The notes under the pieces: model-generated
The model's database searches: none
What the model saw: only the letters and a program-made list of their open reading frames with translations
What the model was told of the DNA's origin: nothing
DNA from: Candidatus Dojkabacteria bacterium
GTDB taxonomy: Bacteria; Patescibacteriota; Dojkabacteria; SC72
Direction: 5' to 3'
Assembly: GCA_050950145.1 (NCBI GenBank)
Contig: JBMNHB010000001.1
Location: 53,136-117,135 of the forward strand
DNA length: 64,000 nucleotides
Position numbers and translations under genes: made by a program
Shown here: positions 18,141 to 27,349 of the stretch, piece by piece
Numbering within the stretch: the stretch's first letter is position 1
Layout: the number at the start of each line of letters is the position of its first letter

Positions 18141-18596
18141 CTAATACACAATCTTTAACCAATTTTCCTTCAACCATTTATCTGCTTCTTTCTCTTGATT
18201 TAACAGATCTCTTTTAGCTAATTCTTTTTTAATAACATTACCTTGATGTGGATGATCAAATTGTTTTTCTAGTGGAGATTGAAAACCATGAGTATAGTGG
18301 CACAATTCATGTGCAATAGTTGCTCTAATTACAAATTCTGGAACAATCTCATTCTGAAAATATCTAGTAACTGTAATAACTGTAACACTCTTCTCATCCT
18401 GAACTTCTAGTTCCTCTCTTCTTTTTTTCATCAAACCCTTTATCTTTGTATATCTATTTGCTAATTTAATACTTCCTAGCTGTCTTTTAGAATACTTACC
18501 AAACTTAATAACTACTAGATTCTTTCTTGGAACATCACAAAAATGGTTATCCCATAAATCATACAAAATGTTTTCTAAATACTTATTATCTCTCAT
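18141..18596 (-). CDS. SprT-like / DUF45-type zinc metallopeptidase (HExxH)
   Basis: HELCHYTHG motif with upstream SprT-like pattern (ILYDLWDNHF...VVIKFGKYSKRQLGSIKL). Confidence 0.5.
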   Translation of the reverse strand: MRDNKYLENILYDLWDNHFCDVPRKNLVVIKFGKYSKRQLGSIKLANRYTKIKGLMKKRREELEVQDEKSVTVITVTRYFQNEIVPEFVIRATIAHELCHYTHGFQSPLEKQFDHPHQGNVIKKELAKRDLLNQEKEADKWLKENWLKIVY

Positions 18597-18631
18597 TTAT
18601 AAATCCTTTCTATCATGCTATTATATCCTAT

Positions 18632-20452
18632 ATGATTCCAGAAAAGTTATCTAAAAAACTCTCAACATTAAAAAAGGTACTTTCTTTTGTATATGGTAAA
18701 TATACAGTAGTAGCTGTATCAAGAGATCTACTTTTCATTCTCTCAACAGCTGCTGAGATATATGGAATTAGAATCCTTGGGAAATTCATAGATGCAACAA
18801 CTCAAATTCTACTTAATTGGGAAACATTTGATTTTGCAAAGTTTCTAACAACTGATTCTTTCAAGTTTTTGGTAATAATATTTCTTCTTTGGGGAGTCAC
18901 TCATGTATGTGTGCAGATTAGAGCGTATCTCTATACAGTAATATATGAAAAGGTTTGGTCTAAAGCTCAATTAATGATGATTGAAAAAGTAGCATCTTCT
19001 AATCTACAAGATGTAGAACAGAAAGATTTTCAGGATAAGATTGCTTTTGTTCCTTCTTTTTCCATTGATAGAATAATTAGTGTTTACGATAACTTCTCTA
19101 CAATTCTAAGCAATACCGTGAGGTTTCTAAGTGCAATGGTAATCATATGGGGAAGTATGGGACCTTCTTCTCTCCTTCTTCTTCTCTTTGTTATTCCAGA
19201 ATCTCTAGTCATGCACTCAAGAAGAAAGAGTATTAGAAGTTATCTAGATGAATCAGTTGGAAAACTTAAATTCTTAGGATATATACACAACCTTTCCTTG
19301 ACTATTAGTAACTTCCTTGAATTAAGAGCAAACAATATATATTCATATCTCAGAAGAAGATATTCAGAGGAGTATGATGAATATCTTGGAGGATATTTTG
19401 CTAGTCAGTATAACTTTTACAGAAGTAGATCATTGTTAGGAACCTTTAGTAATTTCTTGAAATATTCATATATTGTATATGTACTTGCTGTTTCAATTGT
19501 AAAGAGATTCTCTTTTGGTACATTCAAAGCTCTTTTTGACTATGTTGAAACAGCACATATGAGTATCTCTGATATTTTTAATTCTGTTTCTCTAGTATCT
19601 ACGAATCTAGGATATATTGATAAATTTTTTGATTTAATAGAATTTGAAGGTTTTGGAGATATCTATCATGGAAAAAGAAAACTTTCAAAAGATACTCCTA
19701 TTTTGGAATTTAGAAATCTTACATTTGCATATCCTGATGATCCTGAAACAGTAGTTTTAGATAATTTAAATATCACTGTAAATCCGGGGGAGAAAGTTGC
19801 ATTCTTTGGTGGTGATGGTTCGGGTAAGAGTACTGCAGTGAAAATATTAACTGGTTTGTATGGTGTTGAGGATGGACAATATCTTTTAGATGGAATATCA
19901 ACAAAGGAATTAGATAGGGGGCAATTAAAGAAGAAACTAGCGGTTATCTTCCAAGATTTTATCAACTATCATTTTAGTTTAAGAGAAAATATTGTAATCT
20001 CTGGACAGAGGAAAAATGTAGATAACGATCTTTACGATGAGGTTAATAATATTGCTGGAGTGAATAAGTTTAAAAAGAGTTCACATATTGATGATTCAAG
20101 TATATTAGGTAAAACATTCCCGTCAGGTAGAGATCTCTCTCCTGGATATTGGCAAAGATTAGCTATTGCTAGAATGCTTTACAGAAACAAAAACATCTTT
20201 ATCATGGATGAACCTTTTACATACATTGATGATATTTCAGCAGAGAAGATATTAAAAGATATGTTCAAATTCTTAGGTAAGGAGAGATCAATGATATATA
20301 TTACTAGGAGTGTTGGTCTTCTGAATAAGTTTGATAGGATATATTACTTTAAAAATGGAAAAATTGTAGAATCAGGGGGGTGGGATGAACTTCTGAAGAA
20401 GAAAGGGAAATTGTATGAAGAATATATGCAACAGAATGAATCAAGGGAATAA
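18632..20452 (+). CDS. ABC exporter, fused permease and ATP-binding domains, degenerate signature motifs
   Basis: N-terminal TM domain; Walker A GGDGSGKST; signature LSPGYWQ instead of LSGGQ; Walker B IFIMDEP; start moved to MIPEKL (18632). Confidence 0.75.
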   Translation: MIPEKLSKKLSTLKKVLSFVYGKYTVVAVSRDLLFILSTAAEIYGIRILGKFIDATTQILLNWETFDFAKFLTTDSFKFLVIIFLLWGVTHVCVQIRAYLYTVIYEKVWSKAQLMMIEKVASSNLQDVEQKDFQDKIAFVPSFSIDRIISVYDNFSTILSNTVRFLSAMVIIWGSMGPSSLLLLLFVIPESLVMHSRRKSIRSYLDESVGKLKFLGYIHNLSLTISNFLELRANNIYSYLRRRYSEEYDEYLGGYFASQYNFYRSRSLLGTFSNFLKYSYIVYVLAVSIVKRFSFGTFKALFDYVETAHMSISDIFNSVSLVSTNLGYIDKFFDLIEFEGFGDIYHGKRKLSKDTPILEFRNLTFAYPDDPETVVLDNLNITVNPGEKVAFFGGDGSGKSTAVKILTGLYGVEDGQYLLDGISTKELDRGQLKKKLAVIFQDFINYHFSLRENIVISGQRKNVDNDLYDEVNNIAGVNKFKKSSHIDDSSILGKTFPSGRDLSPGYWQRLAIARMLYRNKNIFIMDEPFTYIDDISAEKILKDMFKFLGKERSMIYITRSVGLLNKFDRIYYFKNGKIVESGGWDELLKKKGKLYEEYMQQNESRE

Positions 20453-20469: not shown

Positions 20470-21324
20470 ATGGAGATATTAGATGGTAGAGATATATCAA
20501 GAGAGATTCTTAATAAAATTTCTTTTGATATTGTAAAACTGAAAAAAGAAGGAAAAAGAATTCCAAGATTAGATGTTATTCTAGTAGGTGATGATTATGG
20601 AAGTATTAAGTATGTAGGAATGAAAGAGAAGGTAGGTAAAGAGGTAGGTATGCTTGTTCAGATACATCATTTAGATGAGAAGGTAAATACTTTAGATATT
20701 GTAAATTTAATAGATTCATTGAATAAAGATGAGAATGTAGATGGTTTAATGGTTCAACTTCCACTTCCTTCACATATTGATAAACATTTGGTTTTAGAAA
20801 GTATTAAACCAAGTAAGGATGTTGATGGTTTGACTCCTACAAACTTAGGTAAGCTTTTCCAGAAAGATCCATCTGCAATTGCTCCAGCTACTCCTTTAGG
20901 AATAGTCAAATTACTTGAAGCGTACAATATTAAGATATTTGGCAAGAGAGTTGTAATTTTAGGATCTAGTACAATTGTAGGTAAACCTTTAGCTGCAGTT
21001 ATGCTTGAGAAAAATGCAACTGTTACTCTTTGTAATTCACATACCGTGAATATTGAGGATGTTTCTAGAACTGCTGATATCTTAGTATCTGCAATAGGGA
21101 AACCAGAACTAGTAAAAGCAGAATTTCTTAAAAAAGATTGTGTACTTGTTGACGTTGGTTCTAACAAGCATCCTGAGACAGGAAAACTTGTAGGAGATGT
21201 TGATTGGAGTAGTGTACAGGGAATTCCATCATATATTACTCCTGTACCAGGAGGTGTAGGACCAATGACAATTGTTTGTTTAATGTTAAATTTAATGAGG
21301 TGTTACAGAAGTGATACAAGATAA
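20470..21324 (+). CDS. folD: Bifunctional methylenetetrahydrofolate dehydrogenase/cyclohydrolase
   Basis: FolD-like sequence with NAD(P)-binding [18 protein letters not shown]. Confidence 0.9.
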
Positions 21325-22540
21325 CAATGTAAAAGAGCTACTTTCTAAAGAAACTCAGAGACAGGTAGAGGGATTAGAATTAATTGCCTCTGAAAACTAT
21401 GTTTCTGAAGAAGTACTTGAGTGTATGGGTTCAATTCTTACCAACAAATATTCTGAAGGGTATTCCGGAAAGAGATATTACAATGGAAATGAGTATATTG
21501 ATGAGATAGAAAATATTGCAATAGAAAGAGCAAAGAATCTCTTTGGTGTTGATCATGTTAATGTTCAACCTTACTCTGGTTCTCCTGCAAATCTTGCAGT
21601 TCATTTTGCACTGTTAGAGACTGGTGATAGGACTTTGGGAATGTCTTTAGATGCGGGTGGTCACCTAACACATGGTTTTAAGGTTTCCTTCTCAGGAAAA
21701 TTTTACAACTCAGCTAGTTATGGAGTTAATGATGAAGGATATATTGATTATGATGAGGTTTTAAGAATTGCAAAAGAACATAAACCTAAGTTAATATGGG
21801 CAGGGTTCTCTGCATATTCTAGAGTGATAGATTGGGAGAGGTTTAGAAAGATAGCAGATGAGGTAGGAGCATATTTTGTAGCAGATATTGCTCATGTAGC
21901 CGGTTTAGTTGCAGCAGGTGTATATCCATCTCCAGTACCATATGCAGATGTGATAACTACAACAACACATAAGACGCTTAGAGGCCCTAGAGGGGCAATG
22001 ATTATGTGTAAGGAGGAGTTTGCAGAGAGGATAGATAAAGCTATATTCCCAGGATTACAGGGAGGTCCACATAACCACACAACAGCTGCGATAGCAGTAG
22101 CATTAAAAGAAGCAAGTACAGAAGAATTTAAAGAATATTCAAAACAGGTAGTAACTAATGCAAAGGTTCTAGCCGACTCTTTGAGTAAATTAGGTTACAA
22201 GATAGTATCTGGAGGAACAGATAATCACTTATTCCTTGTTGATGTTTTCTCTTCTGTTAACCTATCTGGTAAAGAAGCAGGTGATATGTTAGATAAAGCG
22301 GGTATTACTGTCAACAAGAATGCTATTCCAAACGATACTAGAAAACCTTGGGATCCATCAGGTATTAGAATTGGTACACCGGCATTGACAACAAGAGGTA
22401 TGAAAGAAAAAGAAATGGAACAAATAGCATCATATATTAATAGAGCACTAACAGAATGTCAGAGTGATAAGGATTTTATGAAATTAAAAGGTGAGATAAA
22501 AGAATTTACTGCCTTATTTAAAATTCCTGGGATAAAATAA
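21311..22540 (+). CDS. glyA: Serine hydroxymethyltransferase
   Basis: LELIASENY..., [16 protein letters not shown]-lysine region; GTG start overlapping the folD end. Confidence 0.95.
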
Positions 22541-22541
22541 T

Positions 22542-24137
22542 ATGAAAATAGTTTTTAGAAAAGATCTAAATATTGCCACCATTCGTTCTGATTCATTATG
22601 GAACAAGATGGTTGTACATACTCTTTTACAAAACTGTTCTACAAAACAACCATCAATAAATGCATATTTAGGTGCTAGGTATAGTAGGTCTGCTGATTCA
22701 ATAGTAGATATTGCATCAGAGATTATAAATAGTGGTAAAGATGCCTCTGAAAGGTTAGAAAAGATATTTGCTGGATATGGGCATAAGTCTGTAGGGGATA
22801 TGGCAGAGTTATTTGTTTGTATAGAGAATGTTCCAATTATTACAGGTATGAAGTTCTTCTATATGAATCCTGTTATTGCAGGTCAAGAGCGATCTACTAG
22901 ATATCAAAATTTTTCTGATCCTAATTTTGTTAAAATTCCTGCAGAGGTATGTAGTAATCAATCAGTAAGAAAAGAATATGAAAAGATAATATTTAAGCAG
23001 CTTGCAGATTACAAGAGACTTCTTAAGATTACGCGAGAAGAATTATCTAAGATTTTCAAAATTAACGAAGAGAGTCCTCAGGAAGTCTCTGCTTTAAAGG
23101 CAAGGAGTTTTGATGTTGCTAGATATCTTCTTCCTGTGGGATTGAGTACAAGTGATGCTATGGTGATGTCTGCTCGTTGTTGGTCTGAATTTATTGGTTT
23201 TCTCGCAGGGAGTGATAGTGTTGTTGATAATGAAGTAGCTGATTTAGTGTTGAATTTGTTGGGAGATTCTAATATTGATACTAAGGGATATATTCGGGAG
23301 GCAGATAATCTAATTCGTCACACAGAGTCAAATAGTAGTAGAGGTAATTCTACAAAAGAAGTTTTGGAGTATATTGGTAAGACATTAAGTAGGGAACAGG
23401 TTGATTCTATACCTGAGAGTGAAAGTGAGTCTGTTTCTGTAAGTTACTCCCCTGATTTTACAGAATCTTTATTTTCTCATTATGAAGCTTTATTAAATCC
23501 CTTAGGTTCTGTTGATGAGTATGAATTTGATGAAGAAGATCAAGAGAATATTAGTGAGATACTTTTTGAGAATCATAATCATCATAATACAATTGGGAAT
23601 ATTGGACAGAGTGGTGCAGTTAAAATAGAGGGTTTTGCTACATTAGGAACGTTAAAGGATTTGAATAGGCATAGGAGTTTGGAGAGGTTTATACCTTTAT
23701 TACATGATGAGGTAGATATGGATCAGGAGTTGGATAGAAGAAATGATGAATGTTTTTATCTATGTAATTATCTTGATATTCCAAGCTTAAAGAATTTAAA
23801 GTCTGAGTACAAGAAAGCCTTGTCAGAAACATATGAGATGATAAAGGAGTGGAGAAGTAATGCTAAGGAATATCTTTCTGAGGAAGTATGTGATGAGTTC
23901 ACTAAATATCTACTACCACATGCTCATACAACTAAGTATATGATGTATGGTTCTTTTGATGATTTACAATATGTTGTTAATTTAAGAATAAGGAATGGGG
24001 GACATATAGCATATAGAGTGGTGGTACATGAGTGGTTAAAGAAGTTAGGAATACAAGACCCTATATGGAGAGGTTTACAGAAGAGGCTCAAAGCACCAAA
24101 AGTTGATGATAAATTTGAATTTGTAGATAGGTCATAA
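22542..24137 (+). CDS. thyX: Flavin-dependent thymidylate synthase ThyX, tandem-duplicated (two ThyX-like repeats, 531 aa)
   Basis: Repeat 1 has ERSTRY (like ELSGRY) and ARYLLPVGL...SARCW, but no RHR. Repeat 2 has LNRHRS and TKYLLPHAH...VVNLRIRNGGH (like NLRADSHAQ). Located between glyA and dcd. Confidence 0.6.
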   Translation: MKIVFRKDLNIATIRSDSLWNKMVVHTLLQNCSTKQPSINAYLGARYSRSADSIVDIASEIINSGKDASERLEKIFAGYGHKSVGDMAELFVCIENVPIITGMKFFYMNPVIAGQERSTRYQNFSDPNFVKIPAEVCSNQSVRKEYEKIIFKQLADYKRLLKITREELSKIFKINEESPQEVSALKARSFDVARYLLPVGLSTSDAMVMSARCWSEFIGFLAGSDSVVDNEVADLVLNLLGDSNIDTKGYIREADNLIRHTESNSSRGNSTKEVLEYIGKTLSREQVDSIPESESESVSVSYSPDFTESLFSHYEALLNPLGSVDEYEFDEEDQENISEILFENHNHHNTIGNIGQSGAVKIEGFATLGTLKDLNRHRSLERFIPLLHDEVDMDQELDRRNDECFYLCNYLDIPSLKNLKSEYKKALSETYEMIKEWRSNAKEYLSEEVCDEFTKYLLPHAHTTKYMMYGSFDDLQYVVNLRIRNGGHIAYRVVVHEWLKKLGIQDPIWRGLQKRLKAPKVDDKFEFVDRS

Positions 24138-24167
24138 TTTTATTAAATAATTTCATTTTTTATTTAA

Positions 24168-24731
24168 ATGATTCTTTCAGATAAAAGTATAAAAAGGGCG
24201 ATAAAAAATGGGAATATAAGTATAGACCCATTCTCAGAGGAGTTTTTGCAGCCAGCATCATATGATTTACGCTTAGATAGATATTTTCTTGTTTTTAAAG
24301 AAGGTGAAGATCTGTTAATAGATGTAAAAAAAAGAACAGATGATTTAATGGATAGTATCGACATAGGAGAAGGTGGCTCTTTTATACTGAATCCAGGTCA
24401 GTTTGCATTGGCTAATGTAAAAGAAATAACAGGAGTAGATTCAAAGCATGTTGGTAGGTTAGAAGGGAAGAGCTCTTTAGCTAGAATAGGCTTACTTATA
24501 CATGCTACTGCAGGTTTCTTAGATCCTGGCAATAAATTGAGATTAACATTGGAGTTAGTTAATACATCTCCTTTGCCAATAAAAATTTATGAAGATATGA
24601 AAATAGCCCAAATAGCTTTTGAAGAGTTAGACAGTGATTGTGAAAGACCTTACGGTAGTAAAGAGCTTAACAGCAAATACACAGGAGACCAAAAGGCAAA
24701 AGCAAGTCAAATGTGGAAGAATTTTAAATAA
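24168..24731 (+). CDS. dcd: dCTP deaminase
   Basis: MILSDKSIKRAI...SYDLRL N-terminus and dCTP deaminase/dUTPase fold motifs. Confidence 0.9.
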   Translation: MILSDKSIKRAIKNGNISIDPFSEEFLQPASYDLRLDRYFLVFKEGEDLLIDVKKRTDDLMDSIDIGEGGSFILNPGQFALANVKEITGVDSKHVGRLEGKSSLARIGLLIHATAGFLDPGNKLRLTLELVNTSPLPIKIYEDMKIAQIAFEELDSDCERPYGSKELNSKYTGDQKAKASQMWKNFK

Positions 24732-24734
24732 CTT

Positions 24735-26066
24735 CTATATTCCTGTTGGTGGTGTCATGTTTTCGTTTGTTGTAGGTTGTTCAGGTTCTATGTTGTTCTC
24801 TACACTAGTAGGAATATTATTAATCTCCATATTTACAGCATTTTGTAGATCATTGTCCATTGGAGATGTTGTATCTGCTTGAGTAACTACAGATTCTATT
24901 GGTTGTTCAGTTGATCCTAAATTGGGAGATGCTAGATTATCTGTTTCTACTTCAAGAGGTGAAGTTGATCCTACATCAGGTAAACCTCCTTCAGTCACAT
25001 TTGCAGAGTAGTTACCACTAAGTGACCCATTTATTATGGAAGATGTATTAGCATTTGCTTCTTGTACTTCTTGTATAGGTTGTTGTGGAAGCGTTACCTG
25101 TTCCTCTGAAGGTATTGTATTTGGTGTGTCTGTAGGAGTACTTGTAACCATACTAGGATTTTCACTTTTTAAGAGTTCTTCTAAGTCTGCTTGCTCATTT
25201 GGTGTAGAAGAAGCAGGTGATGTCTCAGGAACTGTTGGTACCTGTTCTGTAGTTTGTTCAGGAGCTTGTGTTGGCTGATTTATCATCTCCGCTAATGTTG
25301 GTTTTGACTGGGCAATATTATCTTGCATAGTTTCATTCTGTAGATTCTGTGGAATGTTCTTAAAGTCAACAGGTTGTTGAGTTGGTTGTGGAGTAGGCTG
25401 AGTCGGTTGTGGAGGCATAACAGATGCAGGAACATCAGTTAGCACGACATTATCCTTTTTCATTGTGACCGACAGTACAATAATGATAATGAAAAATATA
25501 CCAGCAACTCCTAGTAATATATATGGTAGATAAGCCATAATTTTATTATCTTTTTGAGCCGTTGTTTCTGACATTGTAGTAGTGATCTCCTGTGTGGTTA
25601 GTTGTGTTGGAGAGGTTTCTGTATCATCATTAGTAGTAGAATCTTTTATATTATCTCCGACATTTGTTACCGAATCTATTGTTAAATCACCTATCTGAGA
25701 CTCTTCTTGCATTATTGTAAATTTATAATCATCGGATGATGAGGTAAATAGAATAGTAGCTATTAATCCTTGTACAGGTTGATTAGAAGGTAATGTACAT
25801 ACTATCTCTGAAGAACTATCACTTGGCACGTAAGAAAAAGTTGAGCAAGATATGTCTGACTCTACAATATCTGTAATAGTTACATTTTCGGAGTGTTGTA
25901 TTATGATTTTTACATTCTCTGTAGATTCAGATTTTGTATCAATTGAAACAGCAATAGATTTTTTAGTAGAACTAGAAGTTTCTTGTAGTTTAAGTTCTGC
26001 AGCATAACTCAAATTAACGAAGGTAAATAAAAAAAGTATAGAAAAGAAAATAGCGATATTTTTCAT
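24735..26066 (-). CDS. Secreted/membrane protein with signal peptide, central TM helix and Thr/Pro/Gln-rich low-complexity regions
   Basis: N-terminal signal (..VNLSYAAE), TM (ILLGVAGIFFIIIIVLSV), PTQPTPQPTQQP repeats. Confidence 0.4.
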   Translation of the reverse strand: MKNIAIFFSILFLFTFVNLSYAAELKLQETSSSTKKSIAVSIDTKSESTENVKIIIQHSENVTITDIVESDISCSTFSYVPSDSSSEIVCTLPSNQPVQGLIATILFTSSSDDYKFTIMQEESQIGDLTIDSVTNVGDNIKDSTTNDDTETSPTQLTTQEITTTMSETTAQKDNKIMAYLPYILLGVAGIFFIIIIVLSVTMKKDNVVLTDVPASVMPPQPTQPTPQPTQQPVDFKNIPQNLQNETMQDNIAQSKPTLAEMINQPTQAPEQTTEQVPTVPETSPASSTPNEQADLEELLKSENPSMVTSTPTDTPNTIPSEEQVTLPQQPIQEVQEANANTSSIINGSLSGNYSANVTEGGLPDVGSTSPLEVETDNLASPNLGSTEQPIESVVTQADTTSPMDNDLQNAVNMEINNIPTSVENNIEPEQPTTNENMTPPTGI

Positions 26067-26164: not shown

Positions 26165-27349
26165 ATGGAATATCCCATGAGTAACAAACTGCCTACCTCT
26201 GGAGTTGATGAAAGTATAGATGAAGTTCTTGCATTAGAGAACAAACTTCTATCTTCGTCTGCTCCTCATGACTTAAAGGAAGAATCTAAGCTCTCTATAG
26301 ATAGGCTCAAAAGGATGATTCGTATGGGTGGGTATAGTAGTGAATTTGAAACTGTAAGTAAGTATATAGATTGGATTGTAAGAGTACCTTGGAACTCATT
26401 TTCTGAAGATGTTTTAGATATTGTAAGTGCAAAAAAAATCATGGATAGTACACATTATGGTATGGAATCTATTAAAAACCTCATCCTTGATTATTTAGCA
26501 TCTATGCAATTGAAAAAAGAAAATTATCAAAAGAGAGATGTTATTCCTACCCAGTTTCAAGTAGGAGTAGAAGAAAATATTCAGAATAGACCAGTTGTTA
26601 AAGTTGAGAAACAGAAAATCTATACACCAGTATTTCTTTTTGTTGGTTTGCAAGGTGTAGGTAAAACATCTATAGCGAGGTCTATTGCACAATCAATGAA
26701 TAGGAAGTTTGCAAGAATCTCTCTTGGTGCTATTGGTGATGTAAGAACTTTAAGGGGAACCCCAAGGTATTCAATTGATGGTGAACCAGGACAGATAGTA
26801 AAATCTCTGATTAGATGTGGTACTATGAACCCTGTTATTCTTTTGGACGAAATTGAGAAATCTAGTGCTAATACAGGTCTTCTTAATGATGTGATGGCAA
26901 CCCTTTTGGAGATTTTAGACCCAGAGCAAAATACATCTTTCATAGATCATTATATTGATTATCCAATTGATTTATCTAATGTAATGTTTATTTGTACCGC
27001 AAATAATTTAGGAGGGCTTTCTGCTGCTTTGTTAGATAGGGTAGAAGTAATTAGGTTTACCAGTTATTCAGATGAGGAGAAGAAAGTAATTGCGAAGCAG
27101 TATATTCTTCCTGAGGTATTAGAAGAATATAATTTAACATCAAATGAAATTCAAATTTCTGATGATATATGGTTATCAGTTATCAGACCTGTAGGTTTTG
27201 ATGCTGGTATTAGACAGTTAGAAAGAAATATTGCAACCATGATAAGGAGTGCAGCGAGAAAAATTGTAGAAGGTAGTCCAACTCCGATAAGTATCAATAA
27301 TGAGAATCTTTCAGAATTTCTTACTGTTGATCAAGGTCCTCTTAGTTAG
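26165..27349 (+). CDS. Lon-type AAA+ ATPase module without LON N-domain or S16 protease domain
   Basis: Collinear with the Lon AAA+ region: YIDWIVRVPWN, HYGMESIKNLILDYLA, GLQGVGKTS (Walker A; Lon has GPPGVGKTS), ILLDEIEK (Walker B), FICTANN, LLDRVEVIRFTSYSDEEK. ORF stops ~30 aa after the AAA+ lid. Confidence 0.8.
   Translation: MEYPMSNKLPTSGVDESIDEVLALENKLLSSSAPHDLKEESKLSIDRLKRMIRMGGYSSEFETVSKYIDWIVRVPWNSFSEDVLDIVSAKKIMDSTHYGMESIKNLILDYLASMQLKKENYQKRDVIPTQFQVGVEENIQNRPVVKVEKQKIYTPVFLFVGLQGVGKTSIARSIAQSMNRKFARISLGAIGDVRTLRGTPRYSIDGEPGQIVKSLIRCGTMNPVILLDEIEKSSANTGLLNDVMATLLEILDPEQNTSFIDHYIDYPIDLSNVMFICTANNLGGLSAALLDRVEVIRFTSYSDEEKKVIAKQYILPEVLEEYNLTSNEIQISDDIWLSVIRPVGFDAGIRQLERNIATMIRSAARKIVEGSPTPISINNENLSEFLTVDQGPLS

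What the first reader, a model, noticed from the sequence alone, without database searches (positions are those of the whole stretch)
20470..24731. folD-glyA-thyX-dcd operon with a tandem-duplicated single-chain ThyX
The four genes are tightly packed and co-directional with overlaps, forming a complete dCTP to dUMP to dTMP route coupled to methylene-THF supply. The 531-aa ThyX has two ThyX-like repeats. Repeat 1 keeps the S-x-RY motif but lacks the RHR motif. Repeat 2 keeps RHR. Both keep the C-terminal ARxLLP...NLR region. Because the ThyX active site is built across subunits, complementary motif loss may indicate a fused pseudo-dimer with fewer functional sites.
Basis: partly seen in the sequence, partly recalled or inferred. 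Interest (0 to 1): 0.5.

Follow-up and report, generated by a model that had tools for sequence, protein, structure and literature searches.

The report
Fused two-domain ThyX thymidylate synthase operon
A Dojkabacteria (candidate phyla radiation) genome carries a compact folD-glyA-thyX-dcd gene cluster for making thymidylate, and its ThyX is a fusion of two diverged ThyX domains that split the catalytic residues between them, so a dimer should have two working sites instead of four; the family is large and already annotated, but no member has a solved structure.

Summary
Four co-directional genes lie at exactly the stated coordinates: FolD, SHMT/GlyA, a 531-aa ThyX and Dcd.

Both halves of the ThyX pass Pfam Thy1 on their own. 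Each aligns end to end with T. maritima ThyX. The AlphaFold model (pLDDT 86, pTM 0.89) matches only ThyX structures.

Across 126 diverse relatives the catalytic residues are split. The C-domain keeps RHR and the Arg174 equivalent. The N-domain keeps the equivalents of His53/Thr55, Glu86/Ser88/Arg90/Tyr91, Arg147 and Arg165. Mapped onto the published three-subunit active site, this predicts an obligate dimer, a pseudo-tetramer with two complete and two dead sites.

Only repeat 2 keeps NLR, and only repeat 1 keeps the Arg of ARxLLP.

The architecture is not rare. At least 130 clusters at 50% identity are full-length two-domain proteins, mostly Patescibacteria where named. Cyanophage Ma-LMM01 gp020, annotated as thymidylate synthase, has the same layout.

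Dcd is the dUMP-forming bifunctional type, so the pathway claim stands.

Verdict: a correct reading, a new member of a known and annotated kind, of modest interest. The two-site pseudo-tetramer is inferred, not shown.

The parts
20470..21324 (+). folD, bifunctional methylene-THF dehydrogenase / methenyl-THF cyclohydrolase (284 aa)
   Evidence: Pfam PF00763 at 113 bits and PF02882 at 198 bits. NCBIfam FolD models reach E 6e-96 but stay below their equivalog cut-offs.
21311..22540 (+). glyA, serine hydroxymethyltransferase (409 aa, GTG start, overlaps folD by 14 nt)
   Evidence: Pfam SHMT at 565 bits. NCBIfam NF000586 at 606 bits, above its cut-off of 335.
22542..24137 (+). thyX, two-domain flavin-dependent thymidylate synthase (531 aa + stop)
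22542..23378 (+). ThyX N-domain (about aa 1-279). It plays the dUMP-holding role and the second FAD-contact role. It lacks RHR and the R174 equivalent.
   Evidence: Pfam Thy1 at 49.8 bits on its own. hhalign of aa 14-270 against TM0449 residues 3-218, E 7e-5. Residue table.
22782..22790 (+). H81-K82-S83, equivalent to T. maritima H53/T55 (M. tuberculosis S71), a FAD/folate-side loop
   Evidence: H81 and S83 are each present in 125 of 126 family members. The loop has low pLDDT, which is compatible with a mobile loop.
22881..22904 (+). G114-QERSTRY-121, equivalent to T. maritima N85-E86-L87-S88-G89-R90-Y91 (the dUMP loop)
   Evidence: S118 126/126, R120 125/126, Y/F121 125/126, E116 101/126. Translation checked.
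23121..23123 (+). R194, aligned with T. maritima R147
   Evidence: 122 of 126 conserved in the N-domain. The matching C-domain position 455 is variable.
23175..23177 (+). R212 (in S210-A-R212), equivalent to T. maritima R165 / M. tuberculosis R190 (FAD phosphate contact from the second subunit)
   Evidence: 112 of 126 conserved. The matching C-domain position 473 is variable (K, D, T). Subunit role taken from PMC6514825.
23379..23435 (+). Connecting segment between the two domains (about aa 280-298), poorly conserved and rich in Ser/Glu
   Evidence: For aa 263-298, identity to the query is 41% in close relatives and 11% in the broad family, against 63-66% and 29-32% for the domains.
23436..24134 (+). 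ThyX C-domain (about aa 299-531). It plays the FAD-holding role. It keeps RHR and R174. It lacks the S88 loop and the R147 and R165 equivalents.
   Evidence: Pfam Thy1 at 28.1 bits on its own. hhalign of aa 293-524 against TM0449 residues 6-217, E 3.6e-4. Residue table.
23667..23675 (+). R376-H377-R378, the RHR of the ThyX motif
   Evidence: R376 125/126, H377 110/126, R378 120/126. It is preceded by R/K372 (119/126) and D373 (125/126).
23979..23987 (+). N480-L481-R482. R482 is equivalent to T. maritima R174 (activates dUMP).
   Evidence: R482 is present in 125 of 126 members. The role of R174 is taken from PMC8316439.
24168..24731 (+). dcd, dCTP deaminase of the dUMP-forming (bifunctional Dcd:Dut) type (187 aa)
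   Evidence: TIGR02274 at 177 bits, above its cut-off of 92.8. Best PDB match is M. tuberculosis 2qxx at E 6e-44, against E. coli Dcd at 1e-24. S102, D119, Q148 and F117 are present.
18527..20452 (+). Upstream ABC transporter (fused permease and ATPase), 17 nt before folD. It is a syntenic neighbour and not part of the pathway.
   Evidence: Pfam ABC_tran at 88 bits. It is conserved upstream of folD in most Dojkabacteria loci.

Best explanation
The 531-aa protein is a functional flavin-dependent thymidylate synthase built from two fused, anciently diverged ThyX domains.

In canonical ThyX, four identical subunits form four active sites, and each site uses three subunits. Here the residues have been partitioned between the two domains.
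- The C-domain supplies what 'subunit A' supplies: R376-H377-R378 for FAD and dUMP, and R482, the Arg174 equivalent that activates dUMP.
- The N-domain supplies what 'subunit B' supplies: H81/S83 and R212, which contact FAD.
- The N-domain also supplies what 'subunit C' supplies: E116, S118, R120 and Y121, plus R194 (equivalent to T. maritima R147, subunit role recalled from memory), which hold dUMP and cap the flavin.

One site therefore needs one C-domain and two different N-domains. The protein must dimerise into a pseudo-tetramer, (N-C)2. By 222 symmetry exactly two sites are complete, and the other two lack every FAD-anchoring residue.

The enzyme takes methylene-THF from the adjacent GlyA and dUMP directly from the adjacent bifunctional Dcd. 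It returns THF, not DHF, so GlyA and ThyX close a folate cycle without DHFR.

Shown: gene content and order, two ThyX domains, the residue partition and its conservation.
Inferred: dimer, two FAD sites, catalytic activity.
For: Two Thy1 domains are present, each above Pfam's threshold.

Each half aligns over about 200 columns to verified TM0449, and the halves align to each other at E 1.4e-5.

The secondary-structure order of the AlphaFold model repeats twice. It places RHR after helix 368-374 and R482 at the end of helix 472-482, as in ThyX.

The residue partition holds in 126 sequences of 21-50% identity.

The subunit roles come from the M. tuberculosis and H. pylori structures as summarised in PMC6514825 section 3.1. 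The roles of S88, R90, Y91 and R174 come from PMC8316439.

Both domains are equally conserved (66/63% and 32/29%) while the linker is not, so neither domain is decaying.

The order folD-glyA-thyX-dcd is conserved in about 50 Dojkabacteria loci, and dcd-thyX adjacency is seen in other Patescibacteria.

The Dcd carries the determinants of the bifunctional type.

No other ThyX, ThyA, Dut or FolA is detectable in the 64-kb window.
Against: No experiment or solved structure exists for any member. The family profile finds canonical ThyX in the PDB only at E about 0.2.

The residue equivalences rest on profile alignments of modest probability (63% and 37%).

The NCBIfam thyX equivalog scores 34.8 bits, far below its cut-off of 87.9.

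The C-domain keeps a conserved G/E-R382-F383 that aligns with G89-R90-Y91, and its role is unexplained.

I could not read the model's coordinates, so I did not check that the N-C packing equals a canonical ThyX interface.

Whether the rest of the genome holds another thymidylate synthase is unknown.
Confidence: 0.72

Rival explanations
1. It has a ThyX fold but is not a thymidylate synthase. It could be a paralogue that methylates or hydroxymethylates another nucleotide, as PolB does with UMP/dUMP or as phage enzymes that make modified bases do.
Against: The residues that bind and activate dUMP and the flavin are nearly invariant: S118, R120, Y121, R376, R378 and R482. The gene sits between glyA and a dUMP-forming dcd in a conserved cluster. 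Organisms with small genomes need a dTMP source, and no other one is visible in the window. JGI, NCBI and the phage records annotate relatives as thymidylate synthase.
Confidence: 0.1
2. Only one of the two domains matters for catalysis, and the other is a purely structural or regulatory appendage. The protein might then work as a monomer, or might form four sites in a larger assembly.
For: Fused pseudo-dimers in which one repeat becomes purely structural are known elsewhere, for example the two-repeat archaeal tRNA splicing endonucleases (established knowledge; compare PMC3239211, listed).
Against: Neither domain carries a full set of catalytic residues. RHR and R174 are only in the C-domain, and S88/R90/Y91/R147/R165 are only in the N-domain. 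Both domains are equally conserved. A complete site needs two N-domains according to the published subunit roles.
Confidence: 0.1
3. The long ORF is an assembly or gene-calling artefact that joins two adjacent thyX genes.
For: A few short database entries cover only one half.
Against: A collinear 528-536-aa protein is found on more than 100 independent contigs from several sources. The short entries lie on very short contigs or are pieces of visibly broken genes. The AlphaFold model packs both domains with pTM 0.89. The junction has no stop or frameshift.
Confidence: 0.01

Closest known systems
Canonical homotetrameric ThyX / FDTS (T. maritima TM0449, PDB 1O26; M. tuberculosis 2AF6/3GWC; H. 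pylori 3AH5; PBCV-1 2CFA)
   Different: Two domains are fused in one 531-aa chain, at about 15-20% identity to each other and to canonical enzymes. The ThyX motif is split between the domains. Two rather than four complete sites are predicted. There are family-specific invariant residues: R49, D373, Y477, G486-G487 and R530. The protein falls below the TIGR02170 cut-off.
Microcystis cyanophage Ma-LMM01 gp020 (YP_851034, 491 aa, annotated 'thymidylate synthase') and related cyanophage proteins
   Same: It is collinear and has two domains. It shows the same split motifs: ARYSRS, YGHGSV, GAGQERSTRYQ, RDFNRHR and QLRSRVGGHINYR. The structural match is full length, with TM 0.75/0.81. tblastn identity is about 33%.
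   Different: It is phage-encoded and shorter, and it is not next to glyA, folD or dcd.
Chlamydia trachomatis ThyX (CT632), which has been characterised biochemically
   Same: From memory only: it is about 529 aa, roughly twice the canonical size, and active as an FDTS (Griffin et al. 2005, PMID 15591067, cited). It was assayed alongside other ThyX enzymes in PMC3498832.
   Different: I could not obtain its sequence with these tools, so membership in this two-domain family and the same motif split are not verified here.
Heterotetramer complementation of inactive H. pylori ThyX mutants (Leduc et al. 2004, PMID 15123820)
   Same: The logic is the same: subunits that each lack different active-site residues rebuild working sites at their interfaces. 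I recall this from the title and abstract. The paper was not readable here.
   Different: That is a laboratory construct from separate chains. Here the complementation is fixed by evolution in a single chain.
Bifunctional dCTP deaminase/dUTPase (M. tuberculosis Rv0321, PDB 2QLP/2QXX; M. jannaschii DCD-DUT), the closest known relative of the neighbouring dcd
   Same: The alignment of residues 1-186 has no gaps, at E 6e-44. S102, D119 and Q148 are present, and an aromatic residue sits at position 117.
   Different: The activity has not been tested.

Membership tests
ThyX / flavin-dependent thymidylate synthase (Pfam Thy1 PF02511) | Thy1 domain above Pfam's gathering score | tested here: met
   The whole protein scores 74.6 bits. 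The N half scores 49.8 and the C half 28.1, against a gathering score of 24.8.
ThyX / flavin-dependent thymidylate synthase | ThyX fold | tested here: met
ThyX / flavin-dependent thymidylate synthase | Contiguous ThyX motif RHRxxSxxxxSxR(Y) within one domain | tested here: not met
   RHR is found only in the C-domain (376-378) and S-x-R-Y only in the N-domain (118-121). The motif is complete only across domains.
ThyX / flavin-dependent thymidylate synthase | NCBIfam TIGR02170 equivalog cut-off | tested here: not met
   34.8 bits against a cut-off of 87.9.
ThyX / flavin-dependent thymidylate synthase | Bound FAD, NADPH- and CH2-THF-dependent dTMP formation, and a tetramer-like assembly with sites at three-subunit interfaces | not testable with these tools
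   This needs biochemistry or a multimer model with ligands. Only the residue partition could be mapped onto the published subunit roles.
Two-domain (fused) ThyX subfamily | Two collinear Thy1 domains in a chain of about 480-640 aa, matched end to end by relatives | tested here: met
   132 of the best 150 representatives at 50% identity are 480-640 aa, and nearly all match in a single stretch that covers almost the whole profile.
Two-domain (fused) ThyX subfamily | Complementary retention of catalytic residues (N-domain: H53, T55, E86, S88, R90, Y91, R147, R165; C-domain: R74, RHR, R174) | tested here: met
   Counts over 126 sequences. The same pattern is seen in the L080 protein and in phage Ma-LMM01 gp020.
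Two-domain (fused) ThyX subfamily | Includes the experimentally characterised Chlamydia ThyX | not tested
   No Chlamydia sequence was reachable, and the named relatives were all Patescibacteria or phages.
Bifunctional dCTP deaminase/dUTPase (dUMP-forming Dcd) | S102, D119 and Q148 (M. tuberculosis numbering), and an aromatic residue instead of the Arg that blocks the catalytic water in monofunctional Dcd | tested here: met
   Ungapped alignment to 2qxx. The residues read are S102, F117, D119 and Q148. The criteria come from PMC3360063.
Serine hydroxymethyltransferase; FolD | Family models above threshold | tested here: met
   SHMT scores 565 bits (Pfam) and 606 bits (NF000586, cut-off 335). 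Both FolD Pfam domains are above threshold.

The most novel reading that the evidence does not exclude
The two-domain ThyX may be more than a frozen half-dead tetramer. The two remodelled pseudo-sites and the family-specific invariant residues (R49, D373, R382/F383, Y477, G486-G487, the C-terminal D-R-S) may have gained a new role. That role could be a regulatory nucleotide site or a separate docking site for the reductant. If so, this large and structurally uncharted family, widespread among named Patescibacteria relatives and present in some cyanophages, would work differently from textbook ThyX.
Probability: 0.15. Interest if true: 0.55.

Novelty: new member of a known kind. Interest (0 to 1): 0.3.

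Why it matters
ThyX is an antibacterial target because humans lack it. All mechanistic and structural work so far rests on single-domain homotetramers.

This window shows a large, old family, with at least 130 clusters at 50% identity. In it the tetramer has been hard-wired into a fused pseudo-dimer, and the active-site residues are divided between the halves. That is a natural confirmation of the three-subunit active site.

It predicts an enzyme with half the sites per mass and an obligate dimer. No member has a solved structure.

For candidate phyla radiation (CPR) biology, it shows that Dojkabacteria keep a self-contained dCTP to dUMP to dTMP module with its own one-carbon supply, although CPR bacteria are generally regarded as having limited biosynthetic capacity.

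It is a tidy and testable case of subfunctionalisation after internal duplication. It is not a new kind of system.

Tried and rejected
- **Sequence search of the PDB.** The protein alone found nothing. The family profile found canonical ThyX only at E 0.2. There is therefore no solved relative, and residue mapping had to go through hhalign.
- **Direct self-alignment with the close-family profile.** This was barely significant (E 0.006, probability 6%). It became convincing only with a broader profile (E 1.4e-5).
- **AFDB50 fold search.** It was not available.
- **Link to Chlamydia ThyX.** I tried to show it with a broad-profile search and with the most distant locus protein as query. Both returned only Patescibacteria-type or unnamed proteins. 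Cluster look-ups gave no organism names.
- **Literature searches for two-domain, fused or duplicated ThyX.** Nothing turned up. The key papers (Griffin 2005, Leduc 2004, Ulmer 2008) are not held.
- **Split N-only or C-only genes as a heterotetramer intermediate.** The short hits are fragments on short contigs or pieces of broken genes.
- **Promoter and terminator scan.** Counts were at chance level, so the transcription unit is inferred from spacing and synteny only.
- **Second thymidylate synthase, dut or folA in the window.** None was found.
- **tRNA and Rfam scans.** Both were empty.
- **Artefactual fusion.** Rejected because the protein recurs on many independent contigs.
Full report
**Observation.**
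The region holds four co-directional ORFs at exactly the coordinates given.
- folD, 20470-21324.
- glyA, 21311-22540, with a GTG start and a 14-nt overlap with folD.
- A 531-aa ThyX-like gene, 22542-24137, starting 1 nt after the glyA stop.
- dcd, 24168-24731, after a 30-nt gap.

Pfam and NCBIfam identify FolD (both domains), SHMT (565 and 606 bits) and dCTP deaminase (TIGR02274, 177 bits against a cut-off of 92.8). The window has about 33% G+C. The closest relatives of its proteins are annotated Candidatus Dojkabacteria (WS6), a lineage of the candidate phyla radiation.

**Two ThyX domains.**
- Pfam Thy1 matches the protein in two stretches (74.6 bits).
- Scanned apart, residues 1-282 score 49.8 bits and residues 283-531 score 28.1 bits. 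Both exceed the 24.8-bit gathering score.
- I confirmed that my copy of the T. maritima TM0449 sequence is identical to PDB 1KQ4/1O26.
- I built profiles of each half from 143 diverse family members. The N half (residues 14-270) aligns to TM0449 residues 3-218 at E 7e-5. The C half (293-524) aligns to residues 6-217 at E 3.6e-4. The two halves align to each other over 218 columns at E 1.4e-5.
- With only close relatives, the self-match is marginal. The duplication is therefore ancient.
- The AlphaFold model built on a 41-sequence alignment is confident (pLDDT 86.3, pTM 0.89). It shows the same order of strands and helices twice.
- All the best-ranked Foldseek PDB hits listed are ThyX.

**Residue partition.**
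I used the alignments and a 126-sequence alignment of relatives sharing only 21-50% identity with the query. I counted what stands at each canonical active-site position.

The N-domain keeps:
- H81 (T. maritima H53), 125/126.
- S83 (T55), 125/126.
- E116 (E86), 101/126.
- S118 (S88), 126/126.
- R120 (R90), 125/126.
- Y/F121 (Y91), 125/126.
- R194 (R147), 122/126.
- R212 (R165), 112/126.

The N-domain has lost R74, R78, H79, R80 and R174. Those positions now hold M/L/F, N/Y, variable residues, S/P/A and L/F/M.

The C-domain keeps:
- R/K372 (R74), 119/126.
- R376, 125/126.
- H377, 110/126.
- R378, 120/126.
- R482 (R174), 125/126.

The C-domain has a 6-residue deletion where the S88 loop would be. 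It is variable at the T55, R147 and R165 positions.

The statement that both repeats keep ARxLLP...NLR is not. Only repeat 1 keeps the Arg of ARxLLP, and only repeat 2 keeps NLR.

**What the partition means.**
A review of the M. tuberculosis and H. pylori structures states which subunit gives which residue to one active site (PMC6514825 section 3.1).
- RHR and Arg199 (T. maritima R174) come from subunit A.
- Ser71 and Arg190 (T. maritima T55 and R165) come from subunit B.
- Gln103, Ser105, Arg107 and Tyr108 (T. maritima E86, S88, R90, Y91) come from subunit C, which also carries the dUMP.

R174 activates dUMP, and S88, R90 and Y91 act on the flavin-carbinolamine step (PMC8316439).

In the fused protein every 'A' residue is in the C-domain, and every 'B' and 'C' residue is in the N-domain. 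The assignment of R194 (T. maritima R147) to role C rests on my memory of the structures, not on the review.

Number the four positions of a 222 tetramer 1 to 4. The four sites then use the ordered triplets (1,2,3), (2,1,4), (3,4,1) and (4,3,2). If positions 1 and 4 are C-domains and positions 2 and 3 are N-domains, sites 1 and 4 are complete. Sites 2 and 3 have an N-domain in the 'A' role, so they have no RHR and no R174.

The prediction is an obligate dimer of fused chains, because each site needs two different N-domains. It would have two working sites related by the true two-fold axis. This step is inference. I could not read the model's coordinates or model a dimer.

Both domains are equally constrained. 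Identity to the query is 66% and 63% among close relatives, and 32% and 29% in the broad family. The linker is not constrained, at 41% and 11%. Neither domain is decaying.

One residue in the review's list has no counterpart in either domain: M. tuberculosis Arg87. T. maritima also lacks it there (Ile70 by my own numbering), so it is not universal.

The conserved G/E-R382-F383 of the C-domain aligns with G89-R90-Y91. It is unexplained.

**Distribution.**
- A word-indexed search found 468 homologues. Of the best 120 listed, nearly all are 531 aa.
- An exhaustive profile search of 1.84 billion representatives found 1,850 clusters at E<=0.001, 1,125 at <=1e-10 and 214 at <=1e-30.
- Of the best 150, 132 are 480-640 aa, and nearly all match in a single stretch that covers almost the whole profile.
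- The short entries are fragments or broken genes.
- Named relatives are Dojkabacteria, Microgenomates, Pacebacteria, Minisyncoccia, Paceibacterota and SR1.
- The same architecture occurs in cyanophages. Ma-LMM01 gp020 (491 aa, annotated thymidylate synthase) shares about 33% identity and the same split motifs. Its predicted structure matches the model end to end, with TM 0.75/0.81.
- No member has a solved structure.
- From memory, Chlamydia trachomatis ThyX is about 529 aa and enzymatically active. I could not verify that it belongs to this family.

**Context and pathway.**
- In about 50 Dojkabacteria loci the order ABC transporter - folD - glyA - thyX - dcd is kept, down to 46% ThyX identity.
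- Other Patescibacteria have dcd directly upstream of thyX.
- A few Dojkabacteria lack dcd at this place.
- The Dcd aligns without gaps to the M. tuberculosis enzyme (2qxx, E 6e-44, against 1e-24 for E. coli Dcd).
- PMC3360063 states that this M. tuberculosis enzyme is bifunctional and that S102, D119 and Q148 are needed for dUTP hydrolysis. It also states that monofunctional enzymes carry an Arg two residues before the Asp, where bifunctional ones have an aromatic residue.
- The window's Dcd has S102, F117, D119 and Q148, so dUMP is probably made directly from dCTP.
- ThyX yields THF, so GlyA and ThyX form a closed one-carbon cycle. FolD links it to formyl-THF (established biochemistry).
- No ThyA, second ThyX, Dut or FolA is detectable in the window.
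- Promoter and terminator scans are at chance level. The next gene downstream is convergent.

**Rivals.**
- A non-thymidylate paralogue cannot be excluded without an assay. It is disfavoured by the invariant dUMP and flavin residues and by the conserved neighbours.
- A 'one live domain plus one dead domain' model is contradicted by the split of essential residues.
- An assembly artefact is excluded by recurrence on many contigs.

**Verdict.**
The gene cluster is ordinary metabolism. The ThyX belongs to a large family that is already annotated but structurally uncharacterised. I found no description of its motif partition in the searchable literature. It is a new member of a known kind and of modest interest. 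It makes a clear, testable structural prediction.

Noticed in passing
window 24168-24731: The dcd gene is of the dUMP-forming bifunctional dCTP deaminase/dUTPase type. It has S102, D119 and Q148, and F117 in place of the blocking Arg. It is closer to M. tuberculosis Rv0321 than to E. coli Dcd.
   Followed up: yes
window 18527-20452: A fused ABC permease/ATPase gene ends 17 nt before folD. It is syntenic with the cluster in most Dojkabacteria loci, so the co-directional unit may start upstream of the reported finding.
   Followed up: partly
window 24735-26066 (- strand): A 443-aa protein rich in Ser/Thr/Pro/Gln, with an N-terminal signal-like segment and one central hydrophobic segment. Its position is conserved but it evolves fast (29-59% identity in relatives). 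Its only family hit is a weak TrbL match below the cut-off.
   Followed up: no
window 26165-27349: A Lon-like AAA+ ATPase (AAA and Lon lid domains) of 394 aa, with no protease domain in the ORF. It is conserved downstream of the cluster in most loci.
   Followed up: no
L005, L013, L017, L048; L057, L058, L060, L071: Some Dojkabacteria loci have no dcd after thyX. In other Patescibacteria dcd lies directly upstream of thyX, and folD and glyA are not adjacent.
   Followed up: partly
L080 (labelled Bdellovibrionota), L076 (labelled Pseudomonadales), and many loci labelled 'uncultured Candidatus Saccharibacteria': The taxonomic labels of several MAG contigs disagree with their closest protein relatives, which are all Patescibacteria where a name is given. 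This may reflect mis-binning or generic labels rather than spread of the family outside the CPR.
   Followed up: partly
L076 5001-6742; proteins P0146, P0239, P0264: Some assemblies carry interrupted copies of the two-domain thyX, with pieces called as separate short proteins on long contigs. These could be frameshifts, sequencing errors or pseudogenes.
   Followed up: partly
L081 2429-3904 (Microcystis phage Ma-LMM01 gp020); BFVD hits: Cyanophages (Ma-LMM01, the MaMV group, a Microcoleus phage) and a Tunturiibacter jumbo phage encode the same two-domain ThyX. Other long ThyX-like phage proteins of 413-508 aa exist, including one in Bacillus phage SP-15, which has hypermodified thymine.
   Followed up: partly
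window 1-64000: No tRNA gene and no Rfam family at gathering score were found in the whole 64-kb window.
   Followed up: yes
window 23682-23690 (aa 381-383) and 24126-24134 (aa 529-531): The two-domain ThyX has family-specific conserved elements with no assigned role. G/E-R382-F383 follows RHR after a 6-residue deletion. D373, Y477 and G486-G487 are near-invariant, and the chain ends in a conserved D-R-S.
   Followed up: no
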